Origin: an uncultured Flavobacteriaceae bacterium
Lineage (GTDB): Bacteria > Bacteroidota > Bacteroidia > NS11-12g > UBA955
Direction of reading: 5' to 3'
Length of the DNA stretch: 64,000 nt
Assembly: GCA_964475595.1 (NCBI GenBank)
Contig: CAYYXG010000014.1
Coordinates: forward strand, 1,326 to 65,325
Both the position numbers and the translations under genes were made by a program. Shown in pieces: positions 16,500 through 32,023 of this stretch (the first letter of the stretch is position 1; each line of letters begins with the position of its first letter). The notes below the pieces were generated by a model. It ran no database searches. It was given only the letters and a program-made list of their open reading frames with translations, and was not told the origin of the DNA.

Positions 16500-19400
16500 T
16501 ATTTTAAAGTGACTATTTTTAAATTTTGAAATACCCCGGTATCCATCCAGTATTCGCTATCCTCGCTCATACTTTGCAATTGAAGCGTGAAATAGGCAGG
16601 CGTGATATCTTCACCCTCCCTTGATTCCACACTATCTATTTTAATAATTTCCTTGTCATCCCTGTAACTCTCTCTAATTATTGTAAACTTAAAAGGTTCC
16701 TGCTTTTTCAATTTTTCAAATTCAGCTTGGAATGCCATTTGAATCTCCTGCTTTTGTTCATCAAACAACCCTTTTTTATTTTTAATTTTTTCTTCAATCT
16801 TCTCTCGGTTAAAATCCAAAAAATAAAAGGGCCTTGTCGGATAAAGCTTTGTATCAAGCTGCCTTGTCCATATCCTCCAGGGCAATTGAGGTACTGATAC
16901 TTTGTTGCTGTTAAGCGCTGGTGTTATAAATGCTTCCTCTGTTTCCTTCAATGCGAAGTAATCACTGGTCGGAACCATTTTTTTGCCCAGTTCAGATAAA
17001 TCCAATGCAAAACCATTCAAACTCCCTGCAGTGGAAGAATAATGTCCAATCATCGCTCCCACCGCCACAACCGATTTGGAGTCTTTGAAATATCCGTTAC
17101 CATCTTGAAAAGGATACCATCTTCCAACCCTGTATTTATTCAGTGCAACAATTCTATTAGGTGAAACTGCAAAGTATTTTAAGAATAAATCCGAAATGGG
17201 TTTCAATCCTGTAGGTCTTCCGGAAAGCAAAACAATATCGCATTTATAGTGTGCCAGGATGGCGGAGATCTTACCTACAAGAGAATCAAACACACTTTCA
17301 ACTATCGGGGCAATAATTTTACGGTCATATTGCCAGGCAATATCCTTAAGGCTAAATCCAAAGTGATTTTGGAAATAATCCTGCACTCTCTCCGTAGGCA
17401 TATTATGACTAAAAATATCATTGAAGGTGAGTACACGGGAATTTTGCTTGTCTTCAGCAAGAAGCTCAAGATACTTTACAACGACTGGAACAGAAACCTG
17501 CAAATTAAATTCGCTTCTTATTTGCCGTGCAGTTTTAGACTGACGTGCAGTGTTCTCCCCAAAAAAATCATTGATGAGTTTGGATGCCTCCGCTTTTTTT
17601 AGCTTTTTCAGCCATAATTCCATCGCGCCAAACTCACCTTCTATAATAAGTTTTCTGACCAGGTCTTTAAGCATATCATCACCTGCCAGATAGAAACTCT
17701 CCCAAAACAATGGTTCCGGTTTGAGAAGACACTGCCCAGTATCGCCATAGGTATAATCTGCAATCATCAGATCTGTTGTTCCGGCACCGATGTCTACAGA
17801 GCCGATTGTAAGATGTTTGCTCGTCTCTCCAGATCCGGATTTGCCACCATAGAATTCGAAAAACTCCTTGCAATTATTATTGTATCGTTTATTGATTTCA
17901 GCATACAGATATAAGAATTGCGTGCAGGTGGCTTCGTCATATATCCAGGATTTATCCTCTGAATTTTTTGATACACTTGCAGAACTGGGTATTATCTGTA
18001 CATTTTTTCGAGCAGCTTTTTCATCTAAATCATCAAGATGTGTTTCATTATAAAAACGATCTAACATAATAGCTGCGTCTTCAGCACACTTTCGCAGTGC
18101 TATCTGCTCTACTTTAGACATAGCAGTAGGACATGTTATCAGTATACGATCCAATCTTCTCGGCTTCGCTTCATCACCCCATCTTTGTCTGAAGGCGTAA
18201 CCGTTAATCTGCATTCGTGCCTGGCTAAATATTTCAAGAAAAGCGAAGGTCATCAAAGATCTTCTTGAATAGTTAGAAACAAATCCCCCGCTACCATCAG
18301 TATTAAGGGTACCATCAGCATTAACCTGCTCAGAAATACCCTTAATCCAAATATTTTTGCTGCGTTCCTTGTCAAATGAAATAAACTCCCATTCTTTCTT
18401 TTGAGGTTTAGAGTCCCATAAGAAACGTTTTGGACTGGAAAATGTAGTGATTTTGTCCAGGCCTATATTTAAACTGGCCGTATTGTGAATTAATTCGTTG
18501 GCTTCAATCCCAAGACGAACTGCGCTCGGATAAACGAACTGAGGACTATTTTTAATAAAATGGCCTCCAAAACTTGCTTCATGAAATGCCAGTCGCATGT
18601 CAAAGGGTTCACGGGATTTATTTAGCTCTCCATTAACTACAGGATTGGTAAAATTTTGCAACTCCAGATTCTCTACCTTGGTGAAATCATGGTTATCAAA
18701 TAACACTGCACAGGTGCGCGAATTCCCCATATCCACAACAAGATCTACATCACCATAGGCCACATTTCTGTTTGAAAACAGGGTCACTTCAGGCACAGTC
18801 TTTAGCTGCTGTATATATCTTAGTAAAAAAACATACTGGGCCAAATAACTCATTTTTGGTTTTTTTATCCGCATTCCATCAAGGCTTTTCTCCCCGTGAA
18901 ATAACTCCAGGATATATTCATCAACCCACTCACAATTCATTGATTTTGAGAAAAAATCAATGAGTGAAAATTCACTATTGCATAATGAAAACTGCTTGGA
19001 TCTGTCATAATTTGAAAAAGTTGGTGTTTCTACCAAATCATCAGCTTCAAAACCTTGGCTTTCAAATCGTGTTCGGGTATCAAATGCAATTAACAATGTA
19101 TATTTTCTGACTTGGTCTTTTTGTTCGCCTGGGACCAATTTAAACCTGCACCAGTTTACAGGTCCAAATTTTGACTTGTTATTTTTACCGAGTGCAAAAA
19201 ATGGCATTGGCAACCAATGGTTTTCGAATTTATCCCATTTCAAACGGTTTAGAGATATAGGAAAACAATCGGTTTCATCGCTGTCAGAATTAACATTAGG
19301 GATAACCTCCCTGAACTTTCCGCTTAAAAACTCTTCACTTTTATTTACTGCTGACCAAGGTTCTTTCACAGTCCCAGCCTTAATGAGTTTATCGCCGGAC

Positions 19401-19630
19401 ATTTCATCTGTTTTTTGAAGTGCACCCAACTTTAAAAGATCCTGTTTTCTGACCCAAACGTCCTCTTCTGCGTAATGATGCACCAATTCAAGTTTTAGTT
19501 GATCGTCTTCAGCGTCAAACCATTCATGAAAATACATTTTGAAATTATCGGAGAGCTCAATCTCCAGATCTGTGGAATATAACTGAATCCCCGAGTTGGC
19601 TATCAGACTTATATCTTTTTTCATTACCAC
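16499..19630 (-). CDS. large actin/Hsp70-fold (ASKHA) ATPase, SrfB-like
   Basis: 1043 aa. Phosphate-1 motif DLVVDMGNSRTCAVLFD, phosphate-2 motif SVDIGAGTTDLMIADY, adenosine motif IVLLSGRPTGLKPI. The size and architecture recall the virulence-factor SrfB family. Confidence 0.6.
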   Translation of the reverse strand: MVMKKDISLIANSGIQLYSTDLEIELSDNFKMYFHEWFDAEDDQLKLELVHHYAEEDVWVRKQDLLKLGALQKTDEMSGDKLIKAGTVKEPWSAVNKSEEFLSGKFREVIPNVNSDSDETDCFPISLNRLKWDKFENHWLPMPFFALGKNNKSKFGPVNWCRFKLVPGEQKDQVRKYTLLIAFDTRTRFESQGFEADDLVETPTFSNYDRSKQFSLCNSEFSLIDFFSKSMNCEWVDEYILELFHGEKSLDGMRIKKPKMSYLAQYVFLLRYIQQLKTVPEVTLFSNRNVAYGDVDLVVDMGNSRTCAVLFDNHDFTKVENLELQNFTNPVVNGELNKSREPFDMRLAFHEASFGGHFIKNSPQFVYPSAVRLGIEANELIHNTASLNIGLDKITTFSSPKRFLWDSKPQKKEWEFISFDKERSKNIWIKGISEQVNADGTLNTDGSGGFVSNYSRRSLMTFAFLEIFSQARMQINGYAFRQRWGDEAKPRRLDRILITCPTAMSKVEQIALRKCAEDAAIMLDRFYNETHLDDLDEKAARKNVQIIPSSASVSKNSEDKSWIYDEATCTQFLYLYAEINKRYNNNCKEFFEFYGGKSGSGETSKHLTIGSVDIGAGTTDLMIADYTYGDTGQCLLKPEPLFWESFYLAGDDMLKDLVRKLIIEGEFGAMELWLKKLKKAEASKLINDFFGENTARQSKTARQIRSEFNLQVSVPVVVKYLELLAEDKQNSRVLTFNDIFSHNMPTERVQDYFQNHFGFSLKDIAWQYDRKIIAPIVESVFDSLVGKISAILAHYKCDIVLLSGRPTGLKPISDLFLKYFAVSPNRIVALNKYRVGRWYPFQDGNGYFKDSKSVVAVGAMIGHYSSTAGSLNGFALDLSELGKKMVPTSDYFALKETEEAFITPALNSNKVSVPQLPWRIWTRQLDTKLYPTRPFYFLDFNREKIEEKIKNKKGLFDEQKQEIQMAFQAEFEKLKKQEPFKFTIIRESYRDDKEIIKIDSVESREGEDITPAYFTLQLQSMSEDSEYWMDTGVFQNLKIVTLK

Positions 19631-20031
19631 TCTTTATTATTATTACTTTTATTATTTATCTTATATATTTTCACCATACAAGCTTATGTTTCTATGATGA
19701 CTGGCATTAAGAAGCGAACTTCAAATATATAGAATTAACTGAAAAAAACATTATAAGTGAATATTTTGATATACAATCAATTAAGGATATTAACGCATAT
19801 TTTGAAGATAACCGTTTATTCATTTCGCCTGTAACAGACATTTTTAGCACATTGTTTCTAATTCGTGGCATTTTATTTAAACTATCCAACCGCACATAAC
19901 TCTCATTAAAAAATATGCCCCGCCTTGGCAATGTTTTAGTTGCTTTATGTTTTGATACATACAATAATAACAAACCCAACATCAACAAACCAAACATGTT
20001 GAAAAAATAATCCTCATACAAACAGCTCAAG

Positions 20032-21009
20032 CTACAATACCCGGCCACCAGAGTATAGCTTATCCGCTACCCTCCCCGCCAAATCACCTATTTCCTTGTG
20101 CCTGGCAAGCTGTTGCAGCCACTTTTCTGGAATGTTATCTAAGCCATAATATAGTCCTGCCAGGCCACCTGTGACAGCCCCGGTAGTGTCAGTATCGCGG
20201 CCTAGATTCACTGCTTTTAAAACAGCATCCGGGTAATTGTCTGTCGTTAGAAAACACCATATACTCGCTTCCAGCGTATGTAAAACATAACCGCTACTTT
20301 GTATTGCATCTTTTTCAAGCCTGTGTATGTCACTTTTTAACAAACGAACAAATACAGCAATTTCGGTTGGGTGTACCTTACGGCTGTGCAAATGCGCAAG
20401 AACTTTAGCTTGCAAATTTTTGTATATTTCAAACTTCTCTTTGCCTTCCAAAACCTGCAGCGCAAATTCCATGTAATAAAAACACGCTATAATGGAACGA
20501 ATATGTCCATGTGTGATTGATGAAACCTCTTTGGTAAGTTCAAACCGCTCATAAATGGGCTTATTGTAGATATGGAATAACAATGGCAAAATGCGCATCA
20601 GTGAACCATTCCCATTGTCTTCTTCATTGAAACCACCGGCAAGTTCCGGCTTCGCTCCGCGGGCAAGACGCAAAATGGCATCACTTGTTGCTATGCCAAT
20701 ATCAAACACATCTCCATACGGAGTCCAGTAATTCTCATAGCACCATTTCACAAAGTTTTGCCCGATGGTGTTCAGATCAAATTCCTGCGTTAAGGCTTCG
20801 GCCAGGCAAAAGGTCATGGAGCTGTCGTCCGACCATGTACCAGGCGGCAGGTTGTATGTACCATAACCGATCATATCCGTTACAGGATTTTTTCTTATGG
20901 TTTCGCGGCTCTTAAATTCAACGGGCACGCCCAAAGCGTCGCCCACGGCTAAGCCAAACAGTGCGGATTGAATGTGGTGAAGAGTGGGATGCATATGAAT
21001 TTGAATCAA
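20032..21009 (-). CDS. ADP-ribosylglycohydrolase family protein
   Basis: 325 aa. FGLAVGDALGVPVEF...NGSLMRILPL...RDTDTTGAVTGGLAGLYYG are typical ARH/DraG motifs. GC-normal within an AT-rich island. Confidence 0.8.
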   Translation of the reverse strand: MIQIHMHPTLHHIQSALFGLAVGDALGVPVEFKSRETIRKNPVTDMIGYGTYNLPPGTWSDDSSMTFCLAEALTQEFDLNTIGQNFVKWCYENYWTPYGDVFDIGIATSDAILRLARGAKPELAGGFNEEDNGNGSLMRILPLLFHIYNKPIYERFELTKEVSSITHGHIRSIIACFYYMEFALQVLEGKEKFEIYKNLQAKVLAHLHSRKVHPTEIAVFVRLLKSDIHRLEKDAIQSSGYVLHTLEASIWCFLTTDNYPDAVLKAVNLGRDTDTTGAVTGGLAGLYYGLDNIPEKWLQQLARHKEIGDLAGRVADKLYSGGRVL

Positions 21010-21490
21010 TTAAAATTTTAAAATGCTGCCGGAAACGTAGTAGAGATATTACTTTTGGTCATAGGATCCAGAATTTATGAAAGTGTTACATCAACCTTGT
21101 CATGTGGATGAGAAATTTAGCTTTAACCTTTATACTAAGATAATGGATAATTGTGCTAAAGTTTGATTCCTGATGTGGACCGGTCTGTTCCATTTAGAAC
21201 CGATGTTATCGTGGGCGGGGAATACCCATATTTGCTCATGAACCCAACAAAAGCAATACGGACCAAAACTTACCAAGATCAACGAGGAATAATAAAGTTG
21301 CGGGTATCAAGGCATAAAACAAGCTAATTGTGAAATATGCCAAAACAACAAAAAGGGTATATCTAATGAATTTCATAATACGAATATATGAAATACCTAA
21401 AATGATTTACAAGCTATACAGTTAATTAAAAGTTAAGCTCACAGTGTTTTCTTTTAATTATGATATATCCGTTATTTATAGATATTTACA

Positions 21491-22570
21491 TTACCTCAAA
21501 AATCTAATCTGTAAATTAAGATTAAAAAATAACTTTTCATCCTCTTTGTAAATAGTGCCGAACTCATGTTTTGAACTGCTGGCTGTATCAAATTTAGTAT
21601 TATTCAATAAATAGTTCTCAAATTCGTTTCTATTGTATATATGATAACACAAAATATCACCGTCTTCTTTGACAACTAAATAGCCACCTGTTGCATCAAG
21701 TTCCCCTTCCCATGCTTTTGACGGCATCATGCCTAAGGCTATGTCTGTTAAAAATCGTTTAATCTTATATTTATAAAATGGATGATTATTTTTAAGGTCA
21801 AAATCAAGAGGATTTAATAAGGTTATCTCATCAACTAAATCCTTAGTCTTTGAATGACCCGTGGTGAAGAAAATTAAAATTAATTCTGACAGAATTTCTG
21901 GTAGGGCAGTATCAATCAATCTTAGATTGTTCCCAAAAACAGCACTCTCTGTTTTTCTATAAATAAATTTCCCCGAATAGCTACTGATTTTTTCAATTCT
22001 ATCCTTTATTTTACTTCTTGTATCAATTTCATTAATATTTTGAATTTCTTCATCAGATAAAATGGTATTTTTAATTTCATAAATAAAATTGGTAGTCTTG
22101 CCTGCGTTTAATAGCGTTGATGCACTTCCAAGTTGAGATTTTATACTAAATCCGAGTTCTGGTGTTATTCCTGTCCTTTGGTCATGAATTACTATTCTTA
22201 TGTCGCTTTTTATGGTTGATTTAGCCTTAAGAGAAATACAGTTAAATGATTTAATGAAAGCTTCAATTTCAGGAATTGAGAATGTCGGCGATTTAGTTGA
22301 TTTTAACTTTGAAAGCAGTAAAACCGCATTCTCTCTAAATCTGTTAATAGGAATTTTAAACTCCTCATTTACACCTTTAACAATAATTATATTACCATCG
22401 TAACCATATTCAAAAGTTCCGTTAGATTCATCACGCAGAATTTTAATAATTGGAAATATTAGGCTTTCAATTTTATTTAAATCACTGTCTCCTGTATACA
22501 GCTTTTTATCGGATATGATTTTAAGAAGTGTATATATTTCACTCCATTCACCTATGTTTCCGGTCAGCAT
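21491..22570 (-). CDS. putative type II restriction endonuclease (partner of adjacent Dcm/Vsr)
   Basis: 359 aa with no recognisable motif. Assigned only by its position immediately downstream of the methyltransferase and vsr genes on the same strand. Confidence 0.4.
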   Translation of the reverse strand: MLTGNIGEWSEIYTLLKIISDKKLYTGDSDLNKIESLIFPIIKILRDESNGTFEYGYDGNIIIVKGVNEEFKIPINRFRENAVLLLSKLKSTKSPTFSIPEIEAFIKSFNCISLKAKSTIKSDIRIVIHDQRTGITPELGFSIKSQLGSASTLLNAGKTTNFIYEIKNTILSDEEIQNINEIDTRSKIKDRIEKISSYSGKFIYRKTESAVFGNNLRLIDTALPEILSELILIFFTTGHSKTKDLVDEITLLNPLDFDLKNNHPFYKYKIKRFLTDIALGMMPSKAWEGELDATGGYLVVKEDGDILCYHIYNRNEFENYLLNNTKFDTASSSKHEFGTIYKEDEKLFFNLNLQIRFLR

Positions 22571-22576
22571 TAGAAT

Positions 22577-23848
22577 TTACTTTATTTTATCCAAAATTTG
22601 CTTAGCTGTTGCTTTAATTGCAGGTATGGCCACGGAGTTGCCGAACTGTTTATAAGCAGATGCATCTGCGACAGCATCTATGATAAATTTATCAGGAAAC
22701 CCTTGCAATCTTGCCCATTCTCTGGGAGTCATTTTTCTAATTCCCTCACGATTCACCTCGCCCTTTATGTGGGTAGTAGGGGTGTAGTCCGTAATTCTAT
22801 TGTCAATCACAAGGTTTCTTTCGCGGCCCATACCACCGCAAACCACAGCATTAGCAATGTCGTCATCAGATATGATTTGATATCCAAAACCATTGCCTTT
22901 ATGCTCATGTCTGGCTTTATGATTTTTTAATGTTTGCAAATACTGTGTCGATAGAAAGAACTTGGTAGCCGGAACATTCTTCTCCTTGATGTCGGCAAAA
23001 GTTACTTTTTTATTAGAAGGTTGAGGGTACTCAAATTCGTTTATGCCAAGGTCTTTCCTGAAGCCAACAATAAAAATCCTTTCTCTATTTTGCGGGACTT
23101 CAAAATCTTTTGCATTTATAATTTGAGGTTCGGGTACATAATAACCAAGGTCGTCTCGTAACACATGTAAAATGGTTGATAGTGTCTTGCCTTTATCATG
23201 ATTTCTGAGGCCCTTTACATTTTCCAAGAAAAATGCTTTAGGTTGTTTTCGCTGAATGATTTCTGCCACATCAAAAAATAATGTTCCTCTAGTATCTTCA
23301 AATCCGCCTCTTTTGCCAGCAATAGAGAAAGCTTGACAAGGGAAACCGGCACAGAGAACATCAAATCCATTAGGAATATAACTTTTTGTAAGTTCTTTTG
23401 TGATATCACCGAAAGGCACTTCCCCGAAGTTGGCACGATAAGTTTTCTGCGCTTCTTTATCCCATTCGCTTGTAAAAACACATTTACCTCCCAAACTTTG
23501 CATGGCTAATCTAAAACCACCGATACCTGCAAATAAATCAATGAATTTGAACGTATAATTTTCGGGAGTCGGAAAAGGAACAGCATTTACCTCAAAAAGC
23601 AATTGTTGCAGTGCCTTATCCGAGACTAAGTTCAGACCATCATTTTCATTTTTATATTCTACGTATTCGCTAATTGCCTTAATGGCATCTTCCTCAAAAT
23701 GGCTCGAGACACCGTTGTCGCGGTTATGTAGATAATGTGTCACAATAGCCTTTTTAACATTGGAAACACCCTGTTCTTGTGTTCTAAAAATTTTGTCTTC
23801 AAACTGGTCGATGCTTATTTTCTTTTTTAAACTCATAAATGGCTTCAA
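22577..23848 (-). CDS. DNA (cytosine-5)-methyltransferase
   Basis: 423 aa. Motif I FIDLFAGIGGFRLA, motif IV GFPCQAFSIAGKRGG, motif VI ENVKGL, motif VIII QNRERIFIVGF. Confidence 0.9.
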   Translation of the reverse strand: MKPFMSLKKKISIDQFEDKIFRTQEQGVSNVKKAIVTHYLHNRDNGVSSHFEEDAIKAISEYVEYKNENDGLNLVSDKALQQLLFEVNAVPFPTPENYTFKFIDLFAGIGGFRLAMQSLGGKCVFTSEWDKEAQKTYRANFGEVPFGDITKELTKSYIPNGFDVLCAGFPCQAFSIAGKRGGFEDTRGTLFFDVAEIIQRKQPKAFFLENVKGLRNHDKGKTLSTILHVLRDDLGYYVPEPQIINAKDFEVPQNRERIFIVGFRKDLGINEFEYPQPSNKKVTFADIKEKNVPATKFFLSTQYLQTLKNHKARHEHKGNGFGYQIISDDDIANAVVCGGMGRERNLVIDNRITDYTPTTHIKGEVNREGIRKMTPREWARLQGFPDKFIIDAVADASAYKQFGNSVAIPAIKATAKQILDKIK

Positions 23849-24239
23849 TAATTTTGTCCGTGCAATTTCGCAAGTTTTTGGTAATGTCCTTGCCCCAAAA
23901 ACGCAAAACTTTCCACCCTGATTTCAACAATTCTTCATTAACCTCAATATCTCGCTGAATGTTTCGCTCTATTTTGTTATGCCAAAACTGTTGGTTGGAC
24001 TTATGGTCGTACTTGCGCTTTTCCCAGTCCTTGCCATGCCAAAACTCGCTGTCAACAAAAATGGCCAGCTTATATCTTTTCATGGTAAGATCGGGCTTGC
24101 CAAAAACTGTCTTGTCATTTTTTCTGTAGCGATAGCCCATAGACCAAAGCTCCCGCGCAAGTGCCTTTTCTATCTTTGATCCTGCCGATTTAACGGCTCG
24201 CATGTTTTTACTCCTGGCACTATGTGTTGATATATTCAT
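23799..24239 (-). CDS. vsr: very short patch repair endonuclease
   Basis: 146 aa. N-terminal RSKNMRAVKS and GKPDL...AIFVDSEFWHGK...WKVLRFW match the Vsr family. Overlaps the methyltransferase gene by ~50 nt. Confidence 0.8.
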   Translation of the reverse strand: MNISTHSARSKNMRAVKSAGSKIEKALARELWSMGYRYRKNDKTVFGKPDLTMKRYKLAIFVDSEFWHGKDWEKRKYDHKSNQQFWHNKIERNIQRDIEVNEELLKSGWKVLRFWGKDITKNLRNCTDKIIEAIYEFKKENKHRPV

Positions 24240-24316
24240 AGCATGTAAACTACAAATTTCAAATATAGCTTATATGGATTTTATTTAAGCGATATATTAG
24301 TATATTTGCAATATTA

Positions 24317-24565
24317 ATGACTATAAACAGTAAAACATCAAGCTCCTCAAAACGAAATAGGTTTGAAAAAGTTGCTTCGAATCGAGTAAGCAAGATAATA
24401 GGCCTACTTGATCTTTTGGGAAACTGCGCCAACAAACACAACTACGATTATTCAGAAAAAGATGTAGAATTGATGTTCAGAGAAATTAACCGAGCTTTAA
24501 AAGAATCCAGGGCTCAGTTCAGCAGACAGAGAACCAAATCCAATAAAAGTATATTTAAATTCTAA
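24317..24565 (+). CDS. small basic hypothetical protein upstream of GHKL ATPase
   Basis: 82-aa ORF, K/R/S-rich, 8 nt upstream of the next gene. Confidence 0.3.
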   Translation: MTINSKTSSSSKRNRFEKVASNRVSKIIGLLDLLGNCANKHNYDYSEKDVELMFREINRALKESRAQFSRQRTKSNKSIFKF

Positions 24566-24573
24566 AATAAAAT

Positions 24574-26526
24574 ATGGAAAACAATTGTAAATGGCATTTC
24601 GATAAAAGCGGCATTTCGATTACGGGGCCAAACGACGCAATTCACGAAGTATTCAGAGCCAATCCTTACTATTCTATCGTTCGAGAAGCTGTTCAAAATA
24701 GCCTGGATGCCGTTGATAATGAAGAAGAGCCGGTTAAAGTGGTGTTTGAATTTGATTCTATAGAGAAGCAGTCATATCCAAATTTATTTGCAATAAAAGA
24801 ACATATCGTGGCCTGTTGGCAATTTCATCGTGGAGATGTACAAGCAGAAAAACACTTCAAGCCCATGTCTAATTACATAGACAGACATCATAAAATTAGA
24901 TTCTTGCGGATTGGAGACTATAATACCAAAGGAATGGAGTATTCGACAGTCGACAACAATAGTCCGTTTGTCTCTTTCGTTCGAGGTGAGGGAAAGAGCG
25001 CCAAACAAGCAGGATCGGGCGGCTCCTTTGGCTTTGGTAAAGGAGCGTATTATGTTTTATCACCAATAAAAACCCTGCTGATATCAACCAAAACAAAGGG
25101 AGGGAATGTGTTTTTTGAGGGCAGAACTAGGTTGGCGACACATCAAATCAATGATGAATTGTTCTCTAGAGATGGATTTTATAATGTAAATTATGTAACA
25201 CCTGTTTCAACAGAAGCCGACATGCCAAGGCTATTCATACGAAATGAATCAGGAACAGATGTTTATATCATTGGTTTGATAGAAGCACAAAACAGAAAAC
25301 AAGAAATAATCAAATCAGTTTTAAACAATTTTTGGCTGGCAATACACGATAAGAAATTAGAAGTAGAAATAATTGAAAATGGCGATAGCACGCATATTGC
25401 GAAGGACACCCTCGAAAATATGATTGAATCATATTTTCCGGATATCTTGGAAAAAGGCAAAGCCACTGATATTACAAGTTGGAATCCAAAATCTTACTAC
25501 AAAGCAGTAAGATATTCCGGGCAAAATGAAGATTACCCATATTTTGAGGAGACCCTTCCTAATTTGGGTAATGTAAAATTGTATGTATATCTTGATAAAA
25601 GCCTGCCAAACAGGATTGCTTACTTGAGAAAACCAAGGATGGTTGTTCAAAAGAAAACTATCAATAGTTTAAATGGATATGTGGCGGTTCTGCTTTGTGA
25701 TAATAATGTGGGAAATGAACTGTTGCGACAAATGGAAAATTCGGCTCACAACGAGTGGAAAACTGAGAACTGCAGAGATGATACAAACCAATCTAATATT
25801 AATCAGGCATACAAAGAACTCAATCAATTCATTAATAACAAATTAGAAATGCTTTCCAAAGTTGATGCACAAAGCAGTGTAGCATTTTTAGGCTTGGAGG
25901 AGTTTTTGGCAATTCCGGATGATTTGATTGAAAAAGACGAAGATTCAAACCTGACGGGAGAGAGTGACAATGAATTTTCAGGAGCAGCCACAAACAGGCC
26001 GAACGAAGGTGAAACAGGCATGCAAACCACCAATACTTTCGGAAAAGTTCAAATTACACCAACAATCATTAAACCTAATAATATAAAAGAGGACAAAAAC
26101 ATAGAGCAAGCGGAAGATGGAACGGAAATTATGATGACGGGTGGAGATAACGAATCCGATGGGGGCGATATGCCTGGCCTTGAAGAAGGTGATTCCAAAA
26201 CTATCGGCATGTCGGGTGATGGCAATGAAAATAATCGCGTACCTGTTATTGTGCAATTAAAAATAGCTGCCCAATTTGAGGGTGGCGTATGGTATCATAA
26301 TCTTATAATTAACGCAGTTAAAAGTATTGCAAAAGCTGAAATAGAATTACTGGCAGGTGGAGATAATGAGGATGAAAAAGGAGTAAGTATTGCAACCGCT
26401 AATTCTGGTATAATACAAGGAAACATTTTAAAGAATGTTCAATTGAACACTGGTAAAAATATTATAAGGGTCAGTTTTAACAACAACATAAAACAGTCAT
26501 TAAAAATAAAAGCCTATGAACTTTAA
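24574..26526 (+). CDS. GHKL-superfamily ATPase (HATPase_c_3 / paraMORC-like)
   Basis: 650 aa. N-box VREAVQNSLDA, G1 box IGDYNTKGM, G2 box GSGGSFGFGKGA. Confidence 0.7.
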   Translation: MENNCKWHFDKSGISITGPNDAIHEVFRANPYYSIVREAVQNSLDAVDNEEEPVKVVFEFDSIEKQSYPNLFAIKEHIVACWQFHRGDVQAEKHFKPMSNYIDRHHKIRFLRIGDYNTKGMEYSTVDNNSPFVSFVRGEGKSAKQAGSGGSFGFGKGAYYVLSPIKTLLISTKTKGGNVFFEGRTRLATHQINDELFSRDGFYNVNYVTPVSTEADMPRLFIRNESGTDVYIIGLIEAQNRKQEIIKSVLNNFWLAIHDKKLEVEIIENGDSTHIAKDTLENMIESYFPDILEKGKATDITSWNPKSYYKAVRYSGQNEDYPYFEETLPNLGNVKLYVYLDKSLPNRIAYLRKPRMVVQKKTINSLNGYVAVLLCDNNVGNELLRQMENSAHNEWKTENCRDDTNQSNINQAYKELNQFINNKLEMLSKVDAQSSVAFLGLEEFLAIPDDLIEKDEDSNLTGESDNEFSGAATNRPNEGETGMQTTNTFGKVQITPTIIKPNNIKEDKNIEQAEDGTEIMMTGGDNESDGGDMPGLEEGDSKTIGMSGDGNENNRVPVIVQLKIAAQFEGGVWYHNLIINAVKSIAKAEIELLAGGDNEDEKGVSIATANSGIIQGNILKNVQLNTGKNIIRVSFNNNIKQSLKIKAYEL

Positions 26527-27370
26527 TAACATTTCTTTGCCACATCCGGTTTTAAGATCTAACTATGATGATATTGCAAGTAGGATTGCTTTAGATCCAC
26601 CTCCAAACATTACCGAAAGCAACAATACCTATTATATTACTGTTACGTGTGAGCATGATAATTCTGATTTACATGAATTGATTAAATCCGAAAAGGCTGA
26701 ATATTATTGTGAAGTCACATGTTCCCATACTCTATACAGGAGCTTTGTAACATCTCAAGATAAAACACTATTCATCGAAATTCCCAAAAAACACCTAAAA
26801 GGCAAAGTTGAATTCTCATGCGCATTATTAGCAAAATCATCGTTTTCAGAATATCAAAACAGCAATGCTCATCATGATTATACAGGTTTCCGTTTTGAAA
26901 TCGAATCGGGAGATATATTGGCGTTTTTCGGTAAATTTACTTTCAATGCTGATATCAGATATGAAAAACTAAAAGCAGTATCTTCCTTTATGGAAGTAGT
27001 GGCAAATGAGGATAATAATGTTATTTATACAAATGTTAATTTGAACAAAAATAAAATCGAAGTACAATTGCCTATAGAAGATTACAATCTATTTGCAAAC
27101 GACAGCATATCTAAAGAACCAAAATTTGCATCCGTCTTTCACTCATCAATTGTATTGAATGCACTGTTGATTGCTTTGTATAAAATTGAACATTTCGAGG
27201 ATAAATTGTGGGCTAAAACCATTGAATACCGACTTAATGAAGAAAATATCTCTTTAGATGAAGACAACATTCCTGAAATTGCCCAAAAGCTTTTGGGAAA
27301 TCCTTATAAAAGACTTATAGAAGATCTTCACAATATTACAGTTAATCAACATTCAAGCATCAACGAATAG
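26516..27370 (+). CDS. hypothetical protein (operon partner of GHKL ATPase)
   Basis: 284 aa. Start overlaps the ATPase stop by 11 nt. Confidence 0.5.
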   Translation: MNFNNISLPHPVLRSNYDDIASRIALDPPPNITESNNTYYITVTCEHDNSDLHELIKSEKAEYYCEVTCSHTLYRSFVTSQDKTLFIEIPKKHLKGKVEFSCALLAKSSFSEYQNSNAHHDYTGFRFEIESGDILAFFGKFTFNADIRYEKLKAVSSFMEVVANEDNNVIYTNVNLNKNKIEVQLPIEDYNLFANDSISKEPKFASVFHSSIVLNALLIALYKIEHFEDKLWAKTIEYRLNEENISLDEDNIPEIAQKLLGNPYKRLIEDLHNITVNQHSSINE

Positions 27371-27374
27371 CACT

Positions 27375-28097
27375 ATGAATAAACAACTTGTTTTTAGAGA
27401 AAAATACCTTCAAAAACTTAGGGAAGAGATCAATGTTGAAAGATACCAAAGCAGTGAATTTGTATACGACAGGAAACAAACCCTTATGATGGCCAACATA
27501 ATCCAACCCCTGGATTTGGTTGGAAAACTTAACCACAAAGACGATTTTATTTCCGCTATAGCTATTTATGAAGCATATAAAAATCTAGAACCTATTCAGG
27601 CTTCCGATGAACGTTTCTGGGGCTATTTGGCACATGTTGATTTATATCAATACATGATTAAACGATGGCCAAAAGTGATTAACATAGAAGAAAGCAATCC
27701 GATAAAATATATTAGGGACCACTGGTTTATGGGCACTACATCACAAGGGAACCTCATGCGTCATTCACTGGCAGGACTATGGTGGTCGGTGCATTTAACA
27801 GTTGACGAACAAAGGACAAACAAATATGAATTGACTGAAGTTCTATTCAGTAATCAAACACTTAGAACAAGAACACTCGGTAATTACAGGTTATTTAGAC
27901 ATAAAGAAGCTGTAATTGGTTTGCTTGAATTTTGTAAAGAAAACAAATCTATTTTGAAGAACTTTGATAAGCAGCACCAACAATTAACAGAGCATTTGAA
28001 TTTAATTGGAGGGGTGAAATTTCTAGCTTACCGAGATAGAGATTTCTTTAAATTAGAGCTACTTAAGATACTACCCTTATTGAATAAGAGTAGTTAA
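27375..28097 (+). CDS. hypothetical protein (operon partner of GHKL ATPase)
   Basis: 240 aa. Begins 4 nt after the previous stop. Confidence 0.5.
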   Translation: MNKQLVFREKYLQKLREEINVERYQSSEFVYDRKQTLMMANIIQPLDLVGKLNHKDDFISAIAIYEAYKNLEPIQASDERFWGYLAHVDLYQYMIKRWPKVINIEESNPIKYIRDHWFMGTTSQGNLMRHSLAGLWWSVHLTVDEQRTNKYELTEVLFSNQTLRTRTLGNYRLFRHKEAVIGLLEFCKENKSILKNFDKQHQQLTEHLNLIGGVKFLAYRDRDFFKLELLKILPLLNKSS

Positions 28098-28162
28098 TTT
28101 TATAAATATTGGATTGTATATAATTATATATGTATTCGGAAATGTTACATTGTTCTATATTT

Positions 28163-29659
28163 TTATTTTTTGGATAAAGCAAGGATTCCTTTTTTAATCT
28201 TTCCTGTTATTATTCTATTTAGAACACCTTCCTTTAAATCTAATATTTTTTGTAAAACCGCTATTACTATATCTTCAACAGAATTCCTTTCATCATAGTA
28301 AACATCTGATTCACTAATTTGAGTTAGACCAGTTTGCCTTATTCTAATTACCGGATGCCCATTAGCTTTTAAAAATTCTGTTTTCTCTATATCTTTTTGT
28401 AGCGAATTTTTATGCGTATGAAATGGATCATATTCCAATCCCAAGTGTATCTCCGGAATCCAAATATCTATTGAAGGTATGCTGTTCCTAAACTTAAGCC
28501 CGCTTATTTTGTAGGGAGAATCAGGTATTTGGCTAAAATACATTTGCAAAAGTTTCCTAATTTCTGCTTCAGCTTTTGATGTACCTTGTTTATTCCTTCG
28601 CGTTGAGCATTGAGGACATCCCGTTTTATTTACCCCAGTCCTATTTGCCGGTGTAGCTATCCAGCAGAAACCACAGGTAGGATTCGAACAAATCCAGTTA
28701 ATCTGCTTACTTGATTTTAACGAAACTTTTTCTATTGAATAACCTTTTTTAATATTTGCTTCAGCGTCCCATTCTTCACTTAATAATTTATCAGATGCAA
28801 CACTCTTTTCAGGACTTGTTATAATATTTTTGCAATACGGACAACCTGTTGGCTTGTTCTTTTTAATCCTGTTGTATAAAATAGAATGATATTTGTGTCC
28901 AATTGGGCATATCCAATGTAATTCTGTGGAGCTTAAATTTTTGGCAGTATATTTAAAAGGATTTAGATTGTTTTTTTCAAAGTCCCATTCATTAATTATT
29001 AAATCTAAATGTGTTGAAGCAAGACAATTTTTTAAAGTAGCCGTTTTATCCCTACATTGGGGACAACCTTCCCTATTACTAGTTCTTTTTCTGACCTCAT
29101 TTTCCCATTTAAACTGACACACATGACATACCCATCCGACCTTTGCTTTACTTCCCGGCAATATATCTTGAGCAGTATTTTTATTTACAAACTCATCATA
29201 ATCTTTAGCAATCTCAGGATATTCAGTTTCAAGATTGTATTCCTTTGATGCTAATTTATGGGCACAGTAAGGACATCCCGTAGGTTTAATGCGTGCTCTT
29301 GAATTTATTTGTGCTTCCCATTTATGTTTTAACTTTGTACATTCCCAAGTAACTTTATCCGTGCTTCCCGCAACAACCTCCGAAGGTGATTTTGCATTAT
29401 CACGAGACCACTCTGAAACTAAATGCGGATGAGTGGAAGCCAAGCAATTTCTTGTATTTACTCTATGATTTTGACAGTAATGGCAGTCACGCCCCCTAAC
29501 TAAACGATTATACATACTTGCCTCCCATTCATCTCCAAACTTCACGCATTTCCACTTAAATTGCATTCTCGAATCATCCTTATGCTTGAGTGCATCCTCA
29601 AATTCAAGGACATTATCATTGGAATACTCTAATTTTAAAATATCTAATCTGTTTTGCAT
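28163..29659 (-). CDS. multi-Zn-ribbon protein with C-terminal Vsr/DUF559-like endonuclease-fold domain
   Basis: 498 aa. At least five repeats of W.C...H.W......R.....GCP.C (e.g. WECTKLKHKWEAQINSRARIKPTGCPYCAHK). C-terminus GLEYDPFHTH...GHPVIRIR. Confidence 0.55.
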   Translation of the reverse strand: MQNRLDILKLEYSNDNVLEFEDALKHKDDSRMQFKWKCVKFGDEWEASMYNRLVRGRDCHYCQNHRVNTRNCLASTHPHLVSEWSRDNAKSPSEVVAGSTDKVTWECTKLKHKWEAQINSRARIKPTGCPYCAHKLASKEYNLETEYPEIAKDYDEFVNKNTAQDILPGSKAKVGWVCHVCQFKWENEVRKRTSNREGCPQCRDKTATLKNCLASTHLDLIINEWDFEKNNLNPFKYTAKNLSSTELHWICPIGHKYHSILYNRIKKNKPTGCPYCKNIITSPEKSVASDKLLSEEWDAEANIKKGYSIEKVSLKSSKQINWICSNPTCGFCWIATPANRTGVNKTGCPQCSTRRNKQGTSKAEAEIRKLLQMYFSQIPDSPYKISGLKFRNSIPSIDIWIPEIHLGLEYDPFHTHKNSLQKDIEKTEFLKANGHPVIRIRQTGLTQISESDVYYDERNSVEDIVIAVLQKILDLKEGVLNRIITGKIKKGILALSKK

Positions 29660-29689
29660 TTAATATACTATTACTCCACAACAAAATAT

Positions 29690-30313
29690 TTATCTAATCC
29701 ATAAATTTTTTGTTTCAAATTCCAATTTACAGCTCAATATTCGCTGATTTGTCAACCTTTGTATGAAAGATTGAATATTATTATATGTCATTTTATTATC
29801 TAATTTTGACCAAGGCACCTTATAGCCATCAATTATAAATCTTGCCTGTCCCCCAATTATAATTATATTGTTTAAATCCTCCGCGTTATATTTCCGTTTT
29901 AGTTCAAGAAGTACAATATTATCAATAGGAGCATGAAAATAAGAAAAACTATTAACCAAAAACTTATGTAGTTCATTAAATTTACTATCTTTTTCTGAGT
30001 AATAAAAACAGAAATAATACTTAAATAATATATTAATGACTTTCTGACTTTGGCCAAATGTTAAATTGCCAATTGTTTGAACTTTTTCAGCAGCAGCGTA
30101 AAACCAAACATCAAATTCACCCTGATTTTTAAATTTGAATCTAGGATCATATAACTCAGTATATAGAAATTCTTTAATCTCGGTTCTTTGGGCATTTGTG
30201 GTACCTCCTCTGTTGGTTCTCTGCATGGTGGCAAAAGTTGCTGTAAACCATTTATCTCTATTGAAGGCTTGAAGCCCTATAGTTTCGCAAAAATCAACAC
30301 AAAACTTTTTCAT
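29690..30313 (-). CDS. hypothetical protein
   Basis: 207-aa ORF in the AT-rich island. No motif recognised. Confidence 0.4.
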   Translation of the reverse strand: MKKFCVDFCETIGLQAFNRDKWFTATFATMQRTNRGGTTNAQRTEIKEFLYTELYDPRFKFKNQGEFDVWFYAAAEKVQTIGNLTFGQSQKVINILFKYYFCFYYSEKDSKFNELHKFLVNSFSYFHAPIDNIVLLELKRKYNAEDLNNIIIIGGQARFIIDGYKVPWSKLDNKMTYNNIQSFIQRLTNQRILSCKLEFETKNLWIR

Positions 30314-30377
30314 TTAGTTACGTAATTCACTAACAAAAATACTAATTATATTGATAAATACAAGTTGCAGACACATC

Positions 30378-30647
30378 CTACCCGCATTCCCGGAACCATT
30401 TCACAAAGTTTTGTGCAACGGTATTCAGGTCAAAATCCTGCGTTAGGGCTTCGGCCAGGCAAAAGGTCATGGAGCTGTCGTCCGACCATGTACCAGGCGG
30501 CAGGTTGTATGTACCATAACCGATCATATCAGTTACAGGATTTTTTCTTATGGTTTCGCGGCTCTTAAATTCAATGGGCACGCCCAAAGCGTCACCCACG
30601 GCTAAGCCAAACAGTACGGATTGAATGTGGTGACGAGTGGGATGCAT
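30378..30647 (-). pseudogene. duplicated 5' fragment (codons 1-~88) of the ADP-ribosylglycohydrolase gene
   Basis: ~95% nt identity to 20736-21001. Identity begins ~8 bp upstream of the ATG and ends abruptly at tggt|gctatgag vs tggt|tccgggaa. Stop after 89 codons. Confidence 0.75.
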
Positions 30648-30899
30648 ATGAAGCCTTAATAGATTTTATTGCCACTGTTGTTTTTTGATGATATTTATAT
30701 TCTAGAAAAATTTTGTAACAAACTTGAGCCTACACAATGAAATTCTTTTTTTATTTTCAAAAATAAACAATCTGTATATCTCATTTAGGCACCCATCCAT
30801 ATACGCCCGAAATAATCCTGACATTATTCATCAAAGTATACATTGTTTTCATGATGGTTGCCTAATAAATGGCTCAAGACAATGATAATACAATCATCA

Positions 30900-31520
30900 A
30901 CAAACCAAATGTGTGGAAAAATATAACACACACATATTGCGCGATTATCTGACGGTATATAACAACCTTCCTTGCCATTATACAATCATTAAACGTTCAA
31001 TCGTGATTATCGATGTTCTTATACCACAAACAATCGCGATGATTAATCATGATATACAAATTTGCTTTGCGATTAATCAGATCAACCATTTCTGCGCCTC
31101 CAGATAATCAAGTTCAACATACATTTTATATGGTCTCGTTCCGCGATTAATATAATTGCATTATTCAGCAATCACGACATATAAACAGCCAATGAGAATG
31201 TGTGTGTCAATCATCACATTTAACCGACTATCGATAATAATCAATACGGTCTCATTTTACGTTCAATACAATTGCACTCTCAATATATCATAATATATTA
31301 ACGACAATCCCGACTCAATATACATCATACATCTGACATGCCGTCACAATACAATGTTGATTAATCATAAATGGTGTTAAAATCCTGTGAATTCACGGAA
31401 ATTTATCACAAGCAAAATAGCTGGTTTATCATTGTCATTTTTCACATTTTGTTTGTTGATAGCATGTTTGTCATAGCTCGTGTTATATCATTGATCATTT
31501 ATCATTTTATTGATTTATAC
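30900..31520. repeat. non-coding AT-rich region with reiterated palindromic TGATTAATCA / CGCGATTA motifs
   Basis: No ORF longer than 64 aa across 30650-32020. At least 8 copies of GATTA(A)TCA-type motifs, including the 12-bp palindrome ATGATTAATCAT. Further ATCATT reiterations at 31420-31520. Confidence 0.45.
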
Positions 31521-31956
31521 CAGGCCCAGAATATTCCAAAAACAAAATGATTGTTGTTTATCATCGTTCATACTTTGATATACATAAACTGTATTATCCG
31601 GGAACAGCGAAAAGACCGATTCGATTATTTGTTTGTTAGCCGATATATCAAGTTGGATGGTGTATGTTGTTTATTCATCCAATCCTTCCAAAATTACAAT
31701 GGCTGAATTTGATGATTATCTGAGTATCCAACTCAAACCACTATCCCAAAAAATTGATGGTGCGTAAAAGTGGTAAATGGAATAATGACACTTTGAATGT
31801 TAACCTTCACGAAATTTTACATTCATGTATATAATTTATACGAAACAGAATCTACTGAAAATACCGGCGATGAATGAAAACATATGCTGGTCAAAAAAAG
31901 CCATTGAAAAAGCGATCACATCTTTCTTTGAGAGTATTTCACCAAACCCCTTAAAG

Positions 31957-31992: not shown

Positions 31993-32023
31993 GAGCTGTT
32001 TAGCAAGTTTCTAAAAGGCCTTG

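What the first reader, a model, noticed from the sequence alone, without database searches (positions are those of the whole stretch)
20736..30652. Duplicated 5' end of the ADP-ribosylglycohydrolase gene brackets the 9.4 kb R-M/GHKL insert
Codons 1-~88 of the ARH gene plus ~8 bp upstream are present twice at ~95% nucleotide identity. One copy belongs to the full-length gene (20736-21001). The other is a dead fragment 9.4 kb away (30378-30652). Identity ends abruptly on both sides. The full gene therefore reads from an insert-derived promoter region, and the fragment retains a different upstream sequence. This is the footprint expected from an element that inserts into a gene 5' end carrying its own replacement end. 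I see no recombinase between the repeats, so it could also be homologous-recombination-mediated capture. An additional imperfect ~48-bp direct repeat (acaat.ataa.ac...catcaacaaaccaaa.[at]gt.g.aaaaa.ataa) occurs at 19958-20007 and 30876-30927, flanking the whole ARH + insert + fragment unit.
Basis: seen in the sequence. Interest (0 to 1): 0.55.

Follow-up and report, generated by a model that had tools for sequence, protein, structure and literature searches.

The report
Defence-gene insertion leaving an ARH gene stub
A 9.4-kb block of anti-phage defence genes was captured into the front of an ADP-ribosylglycohydrolase gene by recombination that used a copy of that gene's own start as its homology arm; this left the old start as a dead stub, which is a known kind of footprint and not a new mobile element.

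Summary
The repeat is real: 20742-20999 and 30395-30652 are 245/258 identical. Four metagenome contigs (L054, L055, L141, L142) show the uninterrupted locus, in which the sequence upstream of the fragment (30653-31117) runs straight into one full-length ARH gene. The fragment is therefore the resident gene's first 87 codons. It matches L055 at 259/261 positions and is cut after nt 261 (junction 30387|30386).

The full-length gene is a mosaic:
- Its 5' end sits behind insert DNA.
- Nt ~219-402 belong to a foreign "B-type" allele (129/133 to L059 against 90/133 to L055 over nt 273-405).
- Between 20593 and 20584 it switches sharply back to the resident type (538/558 to L055).

The insert carries an HpaII-type R-M system with Vsr, the PDC-M33 candidate system, a zinc-ribbon nuclease and an unknown 207-aa protein. 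No recombinase was found.

The best reading is homology-anchored capture: one homologous crossover inside ARH plus one non-homologous joint (HFIR-like). Single crossover of a recircularised fragment is the main rival. The case also meets the published criteria for "R-M insertion with long target duplication".

The 48-bp repeats flank ARH in the empty sites too, so they predate the insertion. This is a new member of a known kind and of modest interest.

The parts
30653..31117 (-). Native upstream (promoter-side) region of the resident ARH gene, now attached only to the stub
   Evidence: Contiguous with a full-length ARH gene in L054, L055, L141 and L142 at 94-98% identity.
30387..30652 (-). Stub: resident (A-type) ARH from nt -5 to nt 261 (codons 1-87). 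The stub ORF 30378-30647 ends in 9 nt of insert DNA.
   Evidence: 259/261 identical to empty-site L055 and 53/53 over nt 209-261. A-type at every informative site.
30386..30387 (.). Non-homologous junction between resident ARH nt 261 and the left end of the insert (...TTCCGGGAA|TGCGGGTAG...). A CCGG site lies at 30390-30393.
   Evidence: Empty-site alleles continue with AACTACTGG where the window has TGCGGGTAG. The junction is reproduced in L056, L057 and L058. CCGG position.
29690..30313 (-). o207, a 207-aa protein of unknown function at the edge of the insert
   Evidence: No hit in Pfam, NCBIfam, PHROGs or PADLOC. It is a real family (92 representatives). AF2 model pLDDT 96.5, with no PDB fold match at E<1.
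28163..29659 (-). 498-aa protein with five DUF4379 treble-clef zinc-finger repeats, nuclease-like
   Evidence: PF14311, E=5e-57, 5 stretches. PHROG 681 endonuclease, E=1e-29.
24317..28097 (+). Candidate defence system PDC-M33: small ORF o82 (24317-24565), M33A (24574-26526), M33B (26516-27370), M33C/DUF6339 (27375-28097)
   Evidence: PADLOC PDC-M33A 3e-98, M33B 3e-55, M33C 1e-33. PF19866 5e-53.
21491..24239 (-). HpaII-type Type II R-M operon: Vsr (23799-24239), C5-cytosine methyltransferase (22577-23848), HpaII-family endonuclease (21491-22570)
   Evidence: PF03852 2e-29, PF00145 9e-102, PF09561 4e-138. PADLOC REase_II, MTase_II and Vsr.
21000..21490 (-). Right end of the insert, now the DNA upstream of the functional ARH gene
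   Evidence: No similarity to the native upstream region or to any other fetched locus except L056. Identity between the two copies begins at 20999.
20032..20994 (-). Full-length mosaic ARH gene: nt 1-117 A-backbone, nt 219-402 B-type tract (20593-20776), nt 411-963 resident A-type
   Evidence: PF03747 8e-80.
20585..20592 (.). Interval that contains the homologous crossover (switch from B-type to A-type)
   Evidence: The last B-type site is nt 402 (20593) and the first A-type site is nt 411 (20584). Of the 30 informative sites from nt 411 to nt 519, 27 are A-type and 3 isolated ones are B-type.
19981..20006 (-). Downstream copy of the 26-nt flank motif. It is not part of the insertion event.
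   Evidence: The motif is present on both sides of ARH in the empty sites.
30896..30921 (-). Upstream copy of the same motif. A third, inverted partial copy lies at 31443-31460.

Best explanation
A resident single-copy ARH gene (A-type, close to the L055 allele) was hit by incoming DNA. That DNA carried a 9.4-kb defence block followed by its own ARH 5' end, which contained a B-type tract. The incoming ARH segment acted as the homology arm. One RecA-type crossover inside ARH, between window 20593 and 20584, joined donor to resident sequence. The other end of the donor DNA (30386) was joined non-homologously to resident ARH nt 261 (30387). About 144 nt of the resident gene (nt 262 to ~405) were replaced by about 9.8 kb. 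The resident promoter and codons 1-87 were left behind as a dead stub, and the gene was rebuilt with a donor 5' end behind insert DNA. This has the topology of homology-facilitated illegitimate recombination (HFIR) of a linear fragment. The 258-nt 'duplication' arises only because the unpaired donor tail also carried the conserved ARH start. Shown: the empty sites, the resident origin of the stub, both junction positions, the allele mosaic and the absence of a recombinase. Inferred: which haplotype was donor and which was resident, that the incoming DNA was linear, and how it entered the cell.
For: Empty sites: L054, L055, L141 and L142 join the native upstream region to one full-length ARH gene. 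The stub is 259/261 identical to L055 and A-type at all informative sites up to its last base. In the full copy, nt 273-405 match B-type L059 at 129/133 but L055 at only 90/133. Nt 406-963 match L055 at 538/558 but L059 at only 406/546. The switch falls between nt 402 and nt 411. Every segment that resembles L055 (upstream region, stub, 3' part) is then resident and every segment that does not is donor, which needs only one resident and one donor haplotype. None of the six other A-backbone alleles (L054, L055, L141, L142, P0121, P0123) carries the B tract. No recombinase or transposase domain was found in any insert ORF by Pfam, NCBIfam, PHROGs or PADLOC. The o207 model is confident and matches no solved recombinase fold. 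Both insert junctions are reproduced in an independent assembly. The definition of HFIR (a homologous joint at one end, an illegitimate joint at the other, and insertion coupled with deletion) is taken from PMC3240628. The same mechanism has been proposed for gene stubs in T6SS and Rhs arrays (PMC5361080).
Against: No donor configuration was found, so microhomology at the 30386|30387 joint cannot be checked. The assignment of donor and resident haplotypes rests on parsimony, not observation. The donor ARH would itself have to be a mosaic: A-backbone at nt 1-117 (CAT codon, nt 15, 33, 43, 102) followed by a B tract. In the one experimental system read here (E. coli conjugation, PMC3240628), partial duplications of the homologous locus came mostly from single crossover of recircularised molecules, not from true HFIR. 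HFIR has been shown mainly in naturally transformable species, and competence is unknown for this uncultured, probably Bacteroidota, organism. The connection across the 84-nt stretch that is identical in both copies (nt 118-201) rests on short-read assembly.
Confidence: 0.55

Rival explanations
1. Single crossover (Campbell-type) of a circular molecule. A linear donor fragment (defence block plus ARH from -5 to nt 261), or a circle excised from another strain with the same structure, was circularised; the circularisation joint is 261|30386. It then recombined once with the resident ARH somewhere in nt 118-201, duplicating the segment from -5 to nt 261. In this model the B tract (nt 219-402) already belonged to the resident gene, and the A-type end of the stub came from the donor.
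For: It predicts exactly the observed order: upstream region, stub, insert, full gene. In E. coli, 56 of 60 events that had been expected to be HFIR were such single crossovers, with duplications of 109-950 bp of the homologous locus (PMC3240628). The two copies are identical over nt 118-201, which leaves room for a crossover. Entry by conjugation, which yields circles, is common in Bacteroidota (my own knowledge).
Against: It needs a resident A-backbone allele that carries the B tract, and none of the six other A-backbone alleles has it. It also needs the tract to straddle the end of the duplication by chance. L055-like and non-L055-like segments would then have to be shared out between both parents.
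Confidence: 0.25
2. R-M-driven 'insertion with long target duplication' in the strict sense (Nobusato/Furuta/Kobayashi). The block inserted at staggered breaks about 266 nt apart in the resident gene, so both copies were resident-derived. The B tract was added to the right-hand copy later by an unrelated gene conversion.
For: The case meets the operational criteria: R and M genes inside, insert under 20 kb, repeat over 30 bp and single-copy in the empty site (PMC2853133). A CCGG site (the likely specificity of an HpaII-family enzyme) lies 3 nt from the joint and is the only one in the first 760 nt of A-type alleles. The chance of this is about 2-5%, judged after the fact. ARH alleles are visibly mosaic elsewhere, for example in the 3' ends of L054 and L055.
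Against: It needs two independent events, and the conversion tract (nt 219-402) would have to cover the duplication boundary by coincidence. The joint retains CCGG plus GAA, so it is not at the C^CGG cleavage position. The B tract adds two new CCGG sites at nt 346 and 356, so there is no sign of site avoidance.
Confidence: 0.08
3. A dedicated integrative element that targets the ARH 5' end by site-specific recombination and carries a replacement 5' end.
For: The gene is restored by an element-borne 5' end, as happens with elements that integrate into gene or tRNA ends. A tyrosine integrase lies 2.5 kb away.
Against: There is no recombinase between the repeats. The nearby integrase sits next to the tmRNA gene, outside the repeats. 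The foreign tract extends 141 nt beyond the repeat and ends in a homologous switch. The mismatches follow allele differences, with no identical core. No other stub-plus-full pair was found among 140 ARH loci.
Confidence: 0.03
4. Assembly phase swap across the identical 84-nt stretch. In this reading the true molecules are an intact hybrid ARH gene plus a 9.65-kb circle or tandem array (the product of recombination between the repeats), or a mixture of two strains.
For: The Logan contigs L056-L058 and L143 break inside the repeat, so only the window assembly links the native upstream region to the stub.
Against: The stub-to-insert joint and the insert-to-ARH-start joint are both real in independent contigs. 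An 84-nt identical stretch is shorter than a typical read. No hybrid allele (stub N-terminus plus B tract) exists in the 5-member 90% protein cluster.
Confidence: 0.04
5. The fragment is a decayed second ARH paralog.
For: None beyond the presence of two copies.
Against: Relatives have one ARH gene at this position. The fragment is 99% identical to their 5' ends, has no frameshift, and has a sharp end.
Confidence: 0.01

Closest known systems
Insertion of R-M systems with long target duplication (Nobusato et al. 2000; Furuta, Abe & Kobayashi 2010, PMC2853133)
   Same: An R-M-containing block under 20 kb with no mobility gene inside, flanked by long direct repeats (here 258-266 nt) that are single-copy in an empty-site relative. 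The repeat identities (about 93-95% between copies) resemble their H. pylori and Burkholderia cases, e.g. 368/393 and 384/412.
   Different: Here one repeat copy is visibly not a copy of the target. It belongs to a different allele whose foreign tract continues 141 nt beyond the repeat and ends at a homologous switch, so the 'duplication' was brought in by the donor rather than made at the target. The block also carries non-R-M defence genes. A tyrosine integrase lies within five genes of it, which their screen would have excluded.
Homology-facilitated illegitimate recombination (de Vries & Wackernagel 2002; Prudhomme et al. 2002; Meier & Wackernagel 2003; summarised in PMC3240628)
   Same: One homologous joint and one non-homologous joint. 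Insertion of foreign DNA is coupled with deletion of recipient DNA next to the anchor (about 144 nt here).
   Different: The insert is much larger (about 9.8 kb against about 1 kb on average). The unpaired tail contains a second stretch homologous to the target, which produces a direct repeat. Microhomology at the joint and linear-DNA uptake could not be tested.
Single crossover of recircularised one-arm DNA giving partial duplications of the target (Amarir-Bouhram et al. 2011, PMC3240628)
   Same: A direct duplication of 109-950 bp of the homologous locus brackets the inserted DNA, and one copy is a truncated gene.
   Different: That was a laboratory plasmid system in E. coli. For the window it requires the resident allele to carry the B tract, which has not been observed.
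Displaced gene stubs in T6SS effector/immunity, Rhs and CDI arrays (Kirchberger et al. 2017, PMC5361080)
   Same: Incoming modules use a conserved part of a gene as the anchor and leave orphaned remnants of the previous allele beside the new one. HFIR was proposed as the mechanism.
   Different: Those cases displace 3' ends and immunity genes of toxin loci. Here the 5' end of an ARH gene is displaced, and the cargo is a defence island inserted between stub and gene.

Membership tests
R-M insertion with long target duplication (criteria of Furuta et al. 2010) | Both R and M gene homologs lie inside the inserted sequence | tested here: met
   RE_HpaII 4e-138 and DNA_methylase 9e-102, plus Vsr. 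PADLOC REase_II and MTase_II.
R-M insertion with long target duplication (criteria of Furuta et al. 2010) | Insert shorter than 20 kb, and an empty-site relative that aligns on both sides | tested here: met
   The insert is 21000-30386, 9387 nt. Empty sites are L054, L055, L141 and L142.
R-M insertion with long target duplication (criteria of Furuta et al. 2010) | Flanking direct repeat longer than 30 bp that is single-copy in the empty site | tested here: met
   258 nt at 95%. One copy in each empty-site contig.
R-M insertion with long target duplication (criteria of Furuta et al. 2010) | No mobility-related gene within the unit or among the five flanking genes | tested here: inconclusive
   None inside the unit. 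A tyrosine integrase at 33158-34399 lies within five ORFs of the stub, next to the tmRNA gene.
R-M insertion with long target duplication (criteria of Furuta et al. 2010) | Both repeat copies derive from the target (a true duplication) | tested here: not met
   The right-hand copy carries donor-type states from nt 219 onward, continuous with a foreign tract that runs to nt 402.
Homology-facilitated illegitimate recombination | One joint lies within homology shared by donor and recipient | tested here: met
   Sharp switch from B-type to A-type between nt 402 and nt 411 inside an intact ORF.
Homology-facilitated illegitimate recombination | The other joint is non-homologous, usually with 3-10 bp of microhomology | tested here: inconclusive
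   The joint is located at 30386|30387 and no homology continues across it. Microhomology needs the donor sequence, which was not found.
Homology-facilitated illegitimate recombination | Deletion of recipient DNA between the two joints | tested here: met
   Resident-type nt 262 to ~405 are absent from the window and are replaced by donor sequence. This holds only under the HFIR assignment of haplotypes.
Homology-facilitated illegitimate recombination | Linear incoming DNA and dependence on RecA | not testable with these tools
   Needs genetics in a cultivable relative.
Site-specific integrative element targeting a gene end | A recombinase is encoded within the element | tested here: not met
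   No integrase, resolvase or transposase domain in any insert ORF. The o207 fold matches no solved structure.
Site-specific integrative element targeting a gene end | The same element recurs at the same target in independent genomes, with a conserved core at both ends | tested here: not met
   The block occurs only in runs SRR14492177, SRR14492188 and SRR14492199, with 100% identical sequence. No stub-plus-full pair was found in 140 ARH loci.

The most novel reading that the evidence does not exclude
The HpaII-type R-M system promoted its own capture. On entering an unmethylated cell it cut the resident ARH gene at its only 5'-proximal CCGG (nt 255-258, 3 nt from the joint). The break was repaired from the incoming DNA through the adjacent ARH homology, which installed the R-M genes and their neighbours. 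That would be a natural, sequence-resolved example of the long-hypothesised break-driven self-insertion of R-M systems. The second partial-gene duplication in the same window (839-1250 / 2655-3066) would suggest the process recurs in this lineage.
Probability: 0.07. Interest if true: 0.6.

Novelty: new member of a known kind. Interest (0 to 1): 0.3.

Why it matters
This is a clean, base-resolved natural example of a defence island entering a chromosome with no recombinase of its own. A conserved, horizontally mobile gene (ARH) served as the homology arm, and the previous allele's promoter and first 87 codons remain as a datable scar. The allele mosaic shows that at least one copy of a 'long target duplication' next to an R-M system can be donor-borne rather than made at the target. 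This bears on how that class of R-M footprints should be read. It also has practical consequences:
- The native ARH promoter now faces o207 and the zinc-ribbon nuclease gene.
- ARH itself depends on insert DNA for expression.
- The 258-nt repeats allow RecA-mediated loss of the island, which the R-M system would penalise.

None of this is a new kind of system.

Tried and rejected
- **Second att site for the tmRNA-linked integrase.** The tmRNA 3' end was searched with up to 3 mismatches and found once only. Local alignment of the tmRNA-proximal region against 19600-20100 scored below the shuffled mean. The best hit elsewhere (1532-1556) was reached by 1 of 60 shuffles. No island boundary is claimed.
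- **Rfam scan of 19000-36000 at E<0.1.** It found only the tmRNA, so the flank motif and the 1.3-kb non-coding stretch match no known RNA family.
- **Search for the donor or other carriers of the block.**
  - Plasmid database: no match.
  - GTDB genome and JGI metagenome scans with ARH: only the ARH gene is shared, and no context is shared.
  - Viral contigs with the upstream pattern, the HpaII enzyme and ARH: nothing useful.
  - Exact-protein look-ups of o207 and the HpaII enzyme: only the same population.
  - The window's own ARH and the stub ORF are not indexed.
- **Word-based homolog search for o207.** It found only itself. The full HMMER scan found a family of 92.
- **PDC-M33A against PDB sequences.** I only see an ExxxNxxD-like motif by eye.
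- **HpaII cleavage as the cause of the joint.** This was considered, but the joint is not at the cleavage position and the B tract adds CCGG sites.
- **Similarity between the insert's right end and the native upstream region.** None.


Full report
**Observation**

The window contains a direct repeat, 20742-20999 and 30395-30652, of 258 nt at 95% identity, with start-to-start spacing of 9653 nt. Both copies lie on the minus strand. One copy is the start of a full-length ADP-ribosylglycohydrolase (ARH) gene, 20032-20994 (320 aa, PF03747, E=8e-80). The other is an 89-codon ORF, 30378-30647. In the pairwise alignment, identity starts 5 nt before the ATG (TTCATATG) and stops at ...GAAATGGT. A Logan contig from run SRR14492199 (L056, 9585 bp) matches window 30476->20892 at 100%. 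It crosses both the fragment-to-insert joint and the insert-to-ARH-start joint, so these joints do not depend on one assembly.

**What lies between and around the copies**

The 9387 nt between the copies (21000-30386) encode, in order along the + strand:
- an HpaII-family endonuclease (21491-22570);
- a C5-cytosine methyltransferase (22577-23848);
- a Vsr nicking enzyme (23799-24239);
- a small ORF, o82 (24317-24565);
- the three proteins of the PADLOC candidate system PDC-M33 (24574-28097);
- a 498-aa protein with five DUF4379 zinc-finger repeats and a PHROG endonuclease match (28163-29659);
- a 207-aa protein with no family hit, o207 (29690-30313).

No ORF has an integrase, resolvase or transposase domain in Pfam, NCBIfam, PHROGs or PADLOC. 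o207 sits where an integrase would usually sit. It belongs to a real family of about 92 representatives. Its model is very confident (pLDDT 96.5), mostly helical, and matches no solved structure (best Foldseek E=1.2).

Outside the repeats, 2.5 kb beyond the fragment, there is a tyrosine integrase (33158-34399) next to a tmRNA gene (34717-35086). I found no second copy of the tmRNA end. On the other side, ARH is followed by an SrfB/SrfC-like operon.

**Empty sites**

The ARH protein belongs to a 90%-identity cluster with four other members. Two of their contigs could be read (L054 and L055), together with two contigs of an 84%-identical allele (L141 and L142). All four join the sequence that precedes the fragment in the window (30653 up to 31117) directly to one full-length ARH gene. 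For example, L055 positions 1-591 align to window 30974->30387 at 97.6%, and positions 326-1364 align to window 20999->19960. The fragment is therefore not a decayed paralog. It is the resident gene's own 5' end.

Against these alleles the fragment is homologous through ...TGGTTCCGGGAA. That is nt 261, codon 87, window 30387, which is 8 nt beyond the point where it stops resembling the full copy. The next bases (TGCGGGTAG) are insert DNA. The fragment matches L055 at 259/261 positions.

**The full copy is a mosaic**

Site-by-site comparison used A-type alleles (L054, L055, L141, L142) and B-type alleles (L059, L060, L048; 82-84% identical overall). It gives a clean pattern.

| Segment of the full copy | Best match | Evidence |
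|---|---|---|
| nt 1-117 | A-backbone | CAT codon and nt 15, 33, 43, 102 are A-type; the few differences from the stub also occur in empty-site alleles L141/L142 |
| nt 118-201 | Uninformative | Identical in both window copies |
| nt 219-402 | B-type | Over nt 273-405: 129/133 to L059, 90/133 to L055 |
| nt 411-963 | A-type | Over nt 406-963: 538/558 to L055, 406/546 to L059 |

The last B-type site is nt 402 (window 20593) and the first A-type site is nt 411 (20584). So 13 of the 18 mismatches between the two copies (nt 202-261) are simply the start of this foreign tract. The 'abrupt end' of the repeat is the true breakpoint blurred by allelic divergence. The B tract is also seen at protein level in alleles P0002-P0004, P0125 and P0126, but in none of the six other A-backbone alleles.

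**Mechanism**

Two joints need explaining. The first is a non-homologous joint between resident nt 261 and the left end of the insert (30387|30386). The second is a homologous switch inside ARH (20585-20592).

The simplest account uses one resident haplotype and one donor haplotype. The resident is close to L055 in the upstream region, the stub and the 3' part. The donor is the defence block followed by an ARH 5' end with the B tract. The donor paired with the resident gene downstream of nt ~405. Its long unpaired tail was joined illegitimately at resident nt 261, 144 nt from the anchor. This replaced nt 262-405 with about 9.8 kb. That is the topology of homology-facilitated illegitimate recombination as summarised in PMC3240628. 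A direct repeat appears only because the tail also contained the conserved ARH start.

The main rival has experimental precedent in the same paper: duplications of 109-950 bp in 56 of 60 events. In it, a fragment running from the block's left end to ARH nt 261 was circularised and integrated by a single crossover within nt 118-201. That model fits the gene order equally well. It requires the resident allele to have carried the B tract, which is not seen in any relative, and it requires the tract to cover the end of the duplication by chance. I weight the two models about 2:1. Both amount to capture through homology to ARH, not element-encoded integration.

A strict 'target duplication' model (staggered breaks, both copies resident-derived) needs an extra conversion event. 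A site-specific element is contradicted by the missing recombinase, the lack of an identical core, and the foreign tract that extends beyond the repeat.

**Comparison with known cases**

Operationally the locus fulfils the criteria of Furuta et al. (2010) for R-M insertion with long target duplication: R and M genes inside, insert under 20 kb, repeat over 30 bp, and an empty site available (PMC2853133). Their screen would have excluded it because of the nearby integrase. The allele data also show that one repeat copy is donor-borne, which differs from a literal duplication of the target. The stub left beside a rebuilt gene also parallels the displaced remnants in T6SS and Rhs arrays, for which HFIR has been proposed (PMC5361080).

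**The 48-bp repeat**

The 48-bp repeat is real. Its core, TTTTTCMACAYRTTTGGTTTGTTGAT, occurs at 19981-20006 and 30896-30921 against 0 expected, with an inverted partial copy at 31443-31460. The same unit lies upstream and downstream of ARH in L054 and L055, extending to about 110 nt in L054. It therefore predates the insertion and is not one of its ends. Downstream of this unit, the window, L055 and L054/L141 each continue differently. Its sequence contains TTTG, 18 nt, then TATCATTG, which resembles the Bacteroidetes -33/-7 promoter pattern. That reading is my own and was not tested.

**Context of ARH**

Close homologs (70-76% identical) occur in MAGs assigned to many phyla and share no flanking genes. 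In the B-type contigs, the gene lies 3-3.6 kb from a tRNA-Phe gene:
- L048 has two extra copies of the tRNA 3' half plus a 451-aa ORF between them.
- L059 has an AbiE pair directly upstream of ARH.

Upstream sequences differ right up to the start codon in every allele. ARH thus behaves as a conserved gene at the edge of variable, defence-rich DNA, which makes it a natural homology anchor.

**Limits**

No donor was found, so microhomology at the joint, the direction of transfer and the form of the incoming DNA are inferences. The link across the 84 identical bases rests on short-read assembly. The organism is uncultured. A Bacteroidota origin is suggested by the integrase domain set, the tmRNA tag GENNYALAA and the closest ARH relatives, but was not established.

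**Verdict**

The feature is a well-resolved new member of a known kind of footprint and is of modest interest.

Noticed in passing
window 839-1250 and 2655-3066: A second partial-gene duplication. The last 412 nt of a Peptidase_M28 gene (380-1255, +) recur 1.8 kb downstream at 94.4% identity (23 mismatches, no gaps) as a 3' fragment ORF (2685-3071). The two copies bracket 1.4 kb that holds a 155-aa ORF and a DUF1810 protein (2071-2502). It mirrors the ARH case at a gene's 3' end.
   Followed up: partly
window 30390-30393 (ARH nt 255-258): The only CCGG in the stub, and the only one in the first 760 nt of A-type ARH alleles, lies 3 nt from the insertion joint. CCGG is the recognition site expected for an HpaII-family enzyme. 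The chance of such proximity is about 2-5%, judged after the fact. The joint is not at the cleavage position, and the B tract adds two CCGG sites.
   Followed up: partly
window 33158-35086: A tyrosine integrase (Arm-DNA-bind_5, SAM_5 and Phage_integrase domains) lies immediately beside the 3' end of a tmRNA gene (tag GENNYALAA), the classic layout of an integrated island. No second att copy was found in the window, so the extent of the island is unknown.
   Followed up: partly
window 19981-20006, 30896-30921, 31443-31460; also L054 and L055: A conserved motif (core ATCAACAAACCAAATGTG) lies within a 50-110-nt unit that flanks ARH on both sides in every related contig. A third, inverted copy sits in the 1.3-kb ORF-free stretch 30653-32000. 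Sequences diverge between genomes just downstream of the distal copy. It could be a promoter/operator or a recombination site; this is undecided.
   Followed up: partly
window 39015-47411: An array of about 11 tandem paralogous ORFs of roughly 140 aa (40842-45681, period about 430-450 nt, 60-86% identity, no Pfam hit). It is bracketed by two larger paralogs (39529-40827 and 45681-47411) that each contain three 90-nt repeats.
   Followed up: no
window 29690-30313: o207 belongs to an uncharacterised family of about 210-aa proteins (92 representatives at E<1e-3). It has a very confident, mostly helical AF2 model and no match to any solved structure or Pfam family.
   Followed up: partly
L048 2763-4885; L059 213-326: In B-type ARH contigs the gene lies a few kb from a tRNA-Phe gene. 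L048 has the tRNA plus two further copies of its 3' half, which bracket a 451-aa ORF; this looks like tandem integrations at tRNA-Phe. L059 has an AbiE toxin-antitoxin pair between the tRNA and ARH.
   Followed up: partly
window 3517-6302: Three adjacent paralogous genes (302, 323 and 311 aa, minus strand) share 82-87% identical stretches (4419-4919 against 5356-5856). They lie downstream of the SrfB / SrfC-like / subtilase operon.
   Followed up: no
L132 2669-3175; L044 327-993: Other damaged ARH genes occur in unrelated metagenome and genome contigs. L132 has an internal deletion (residues 7-92 joined to 231-312). L044 is a 5'-truncated copy that starts at residue 90.
   Followed up: no
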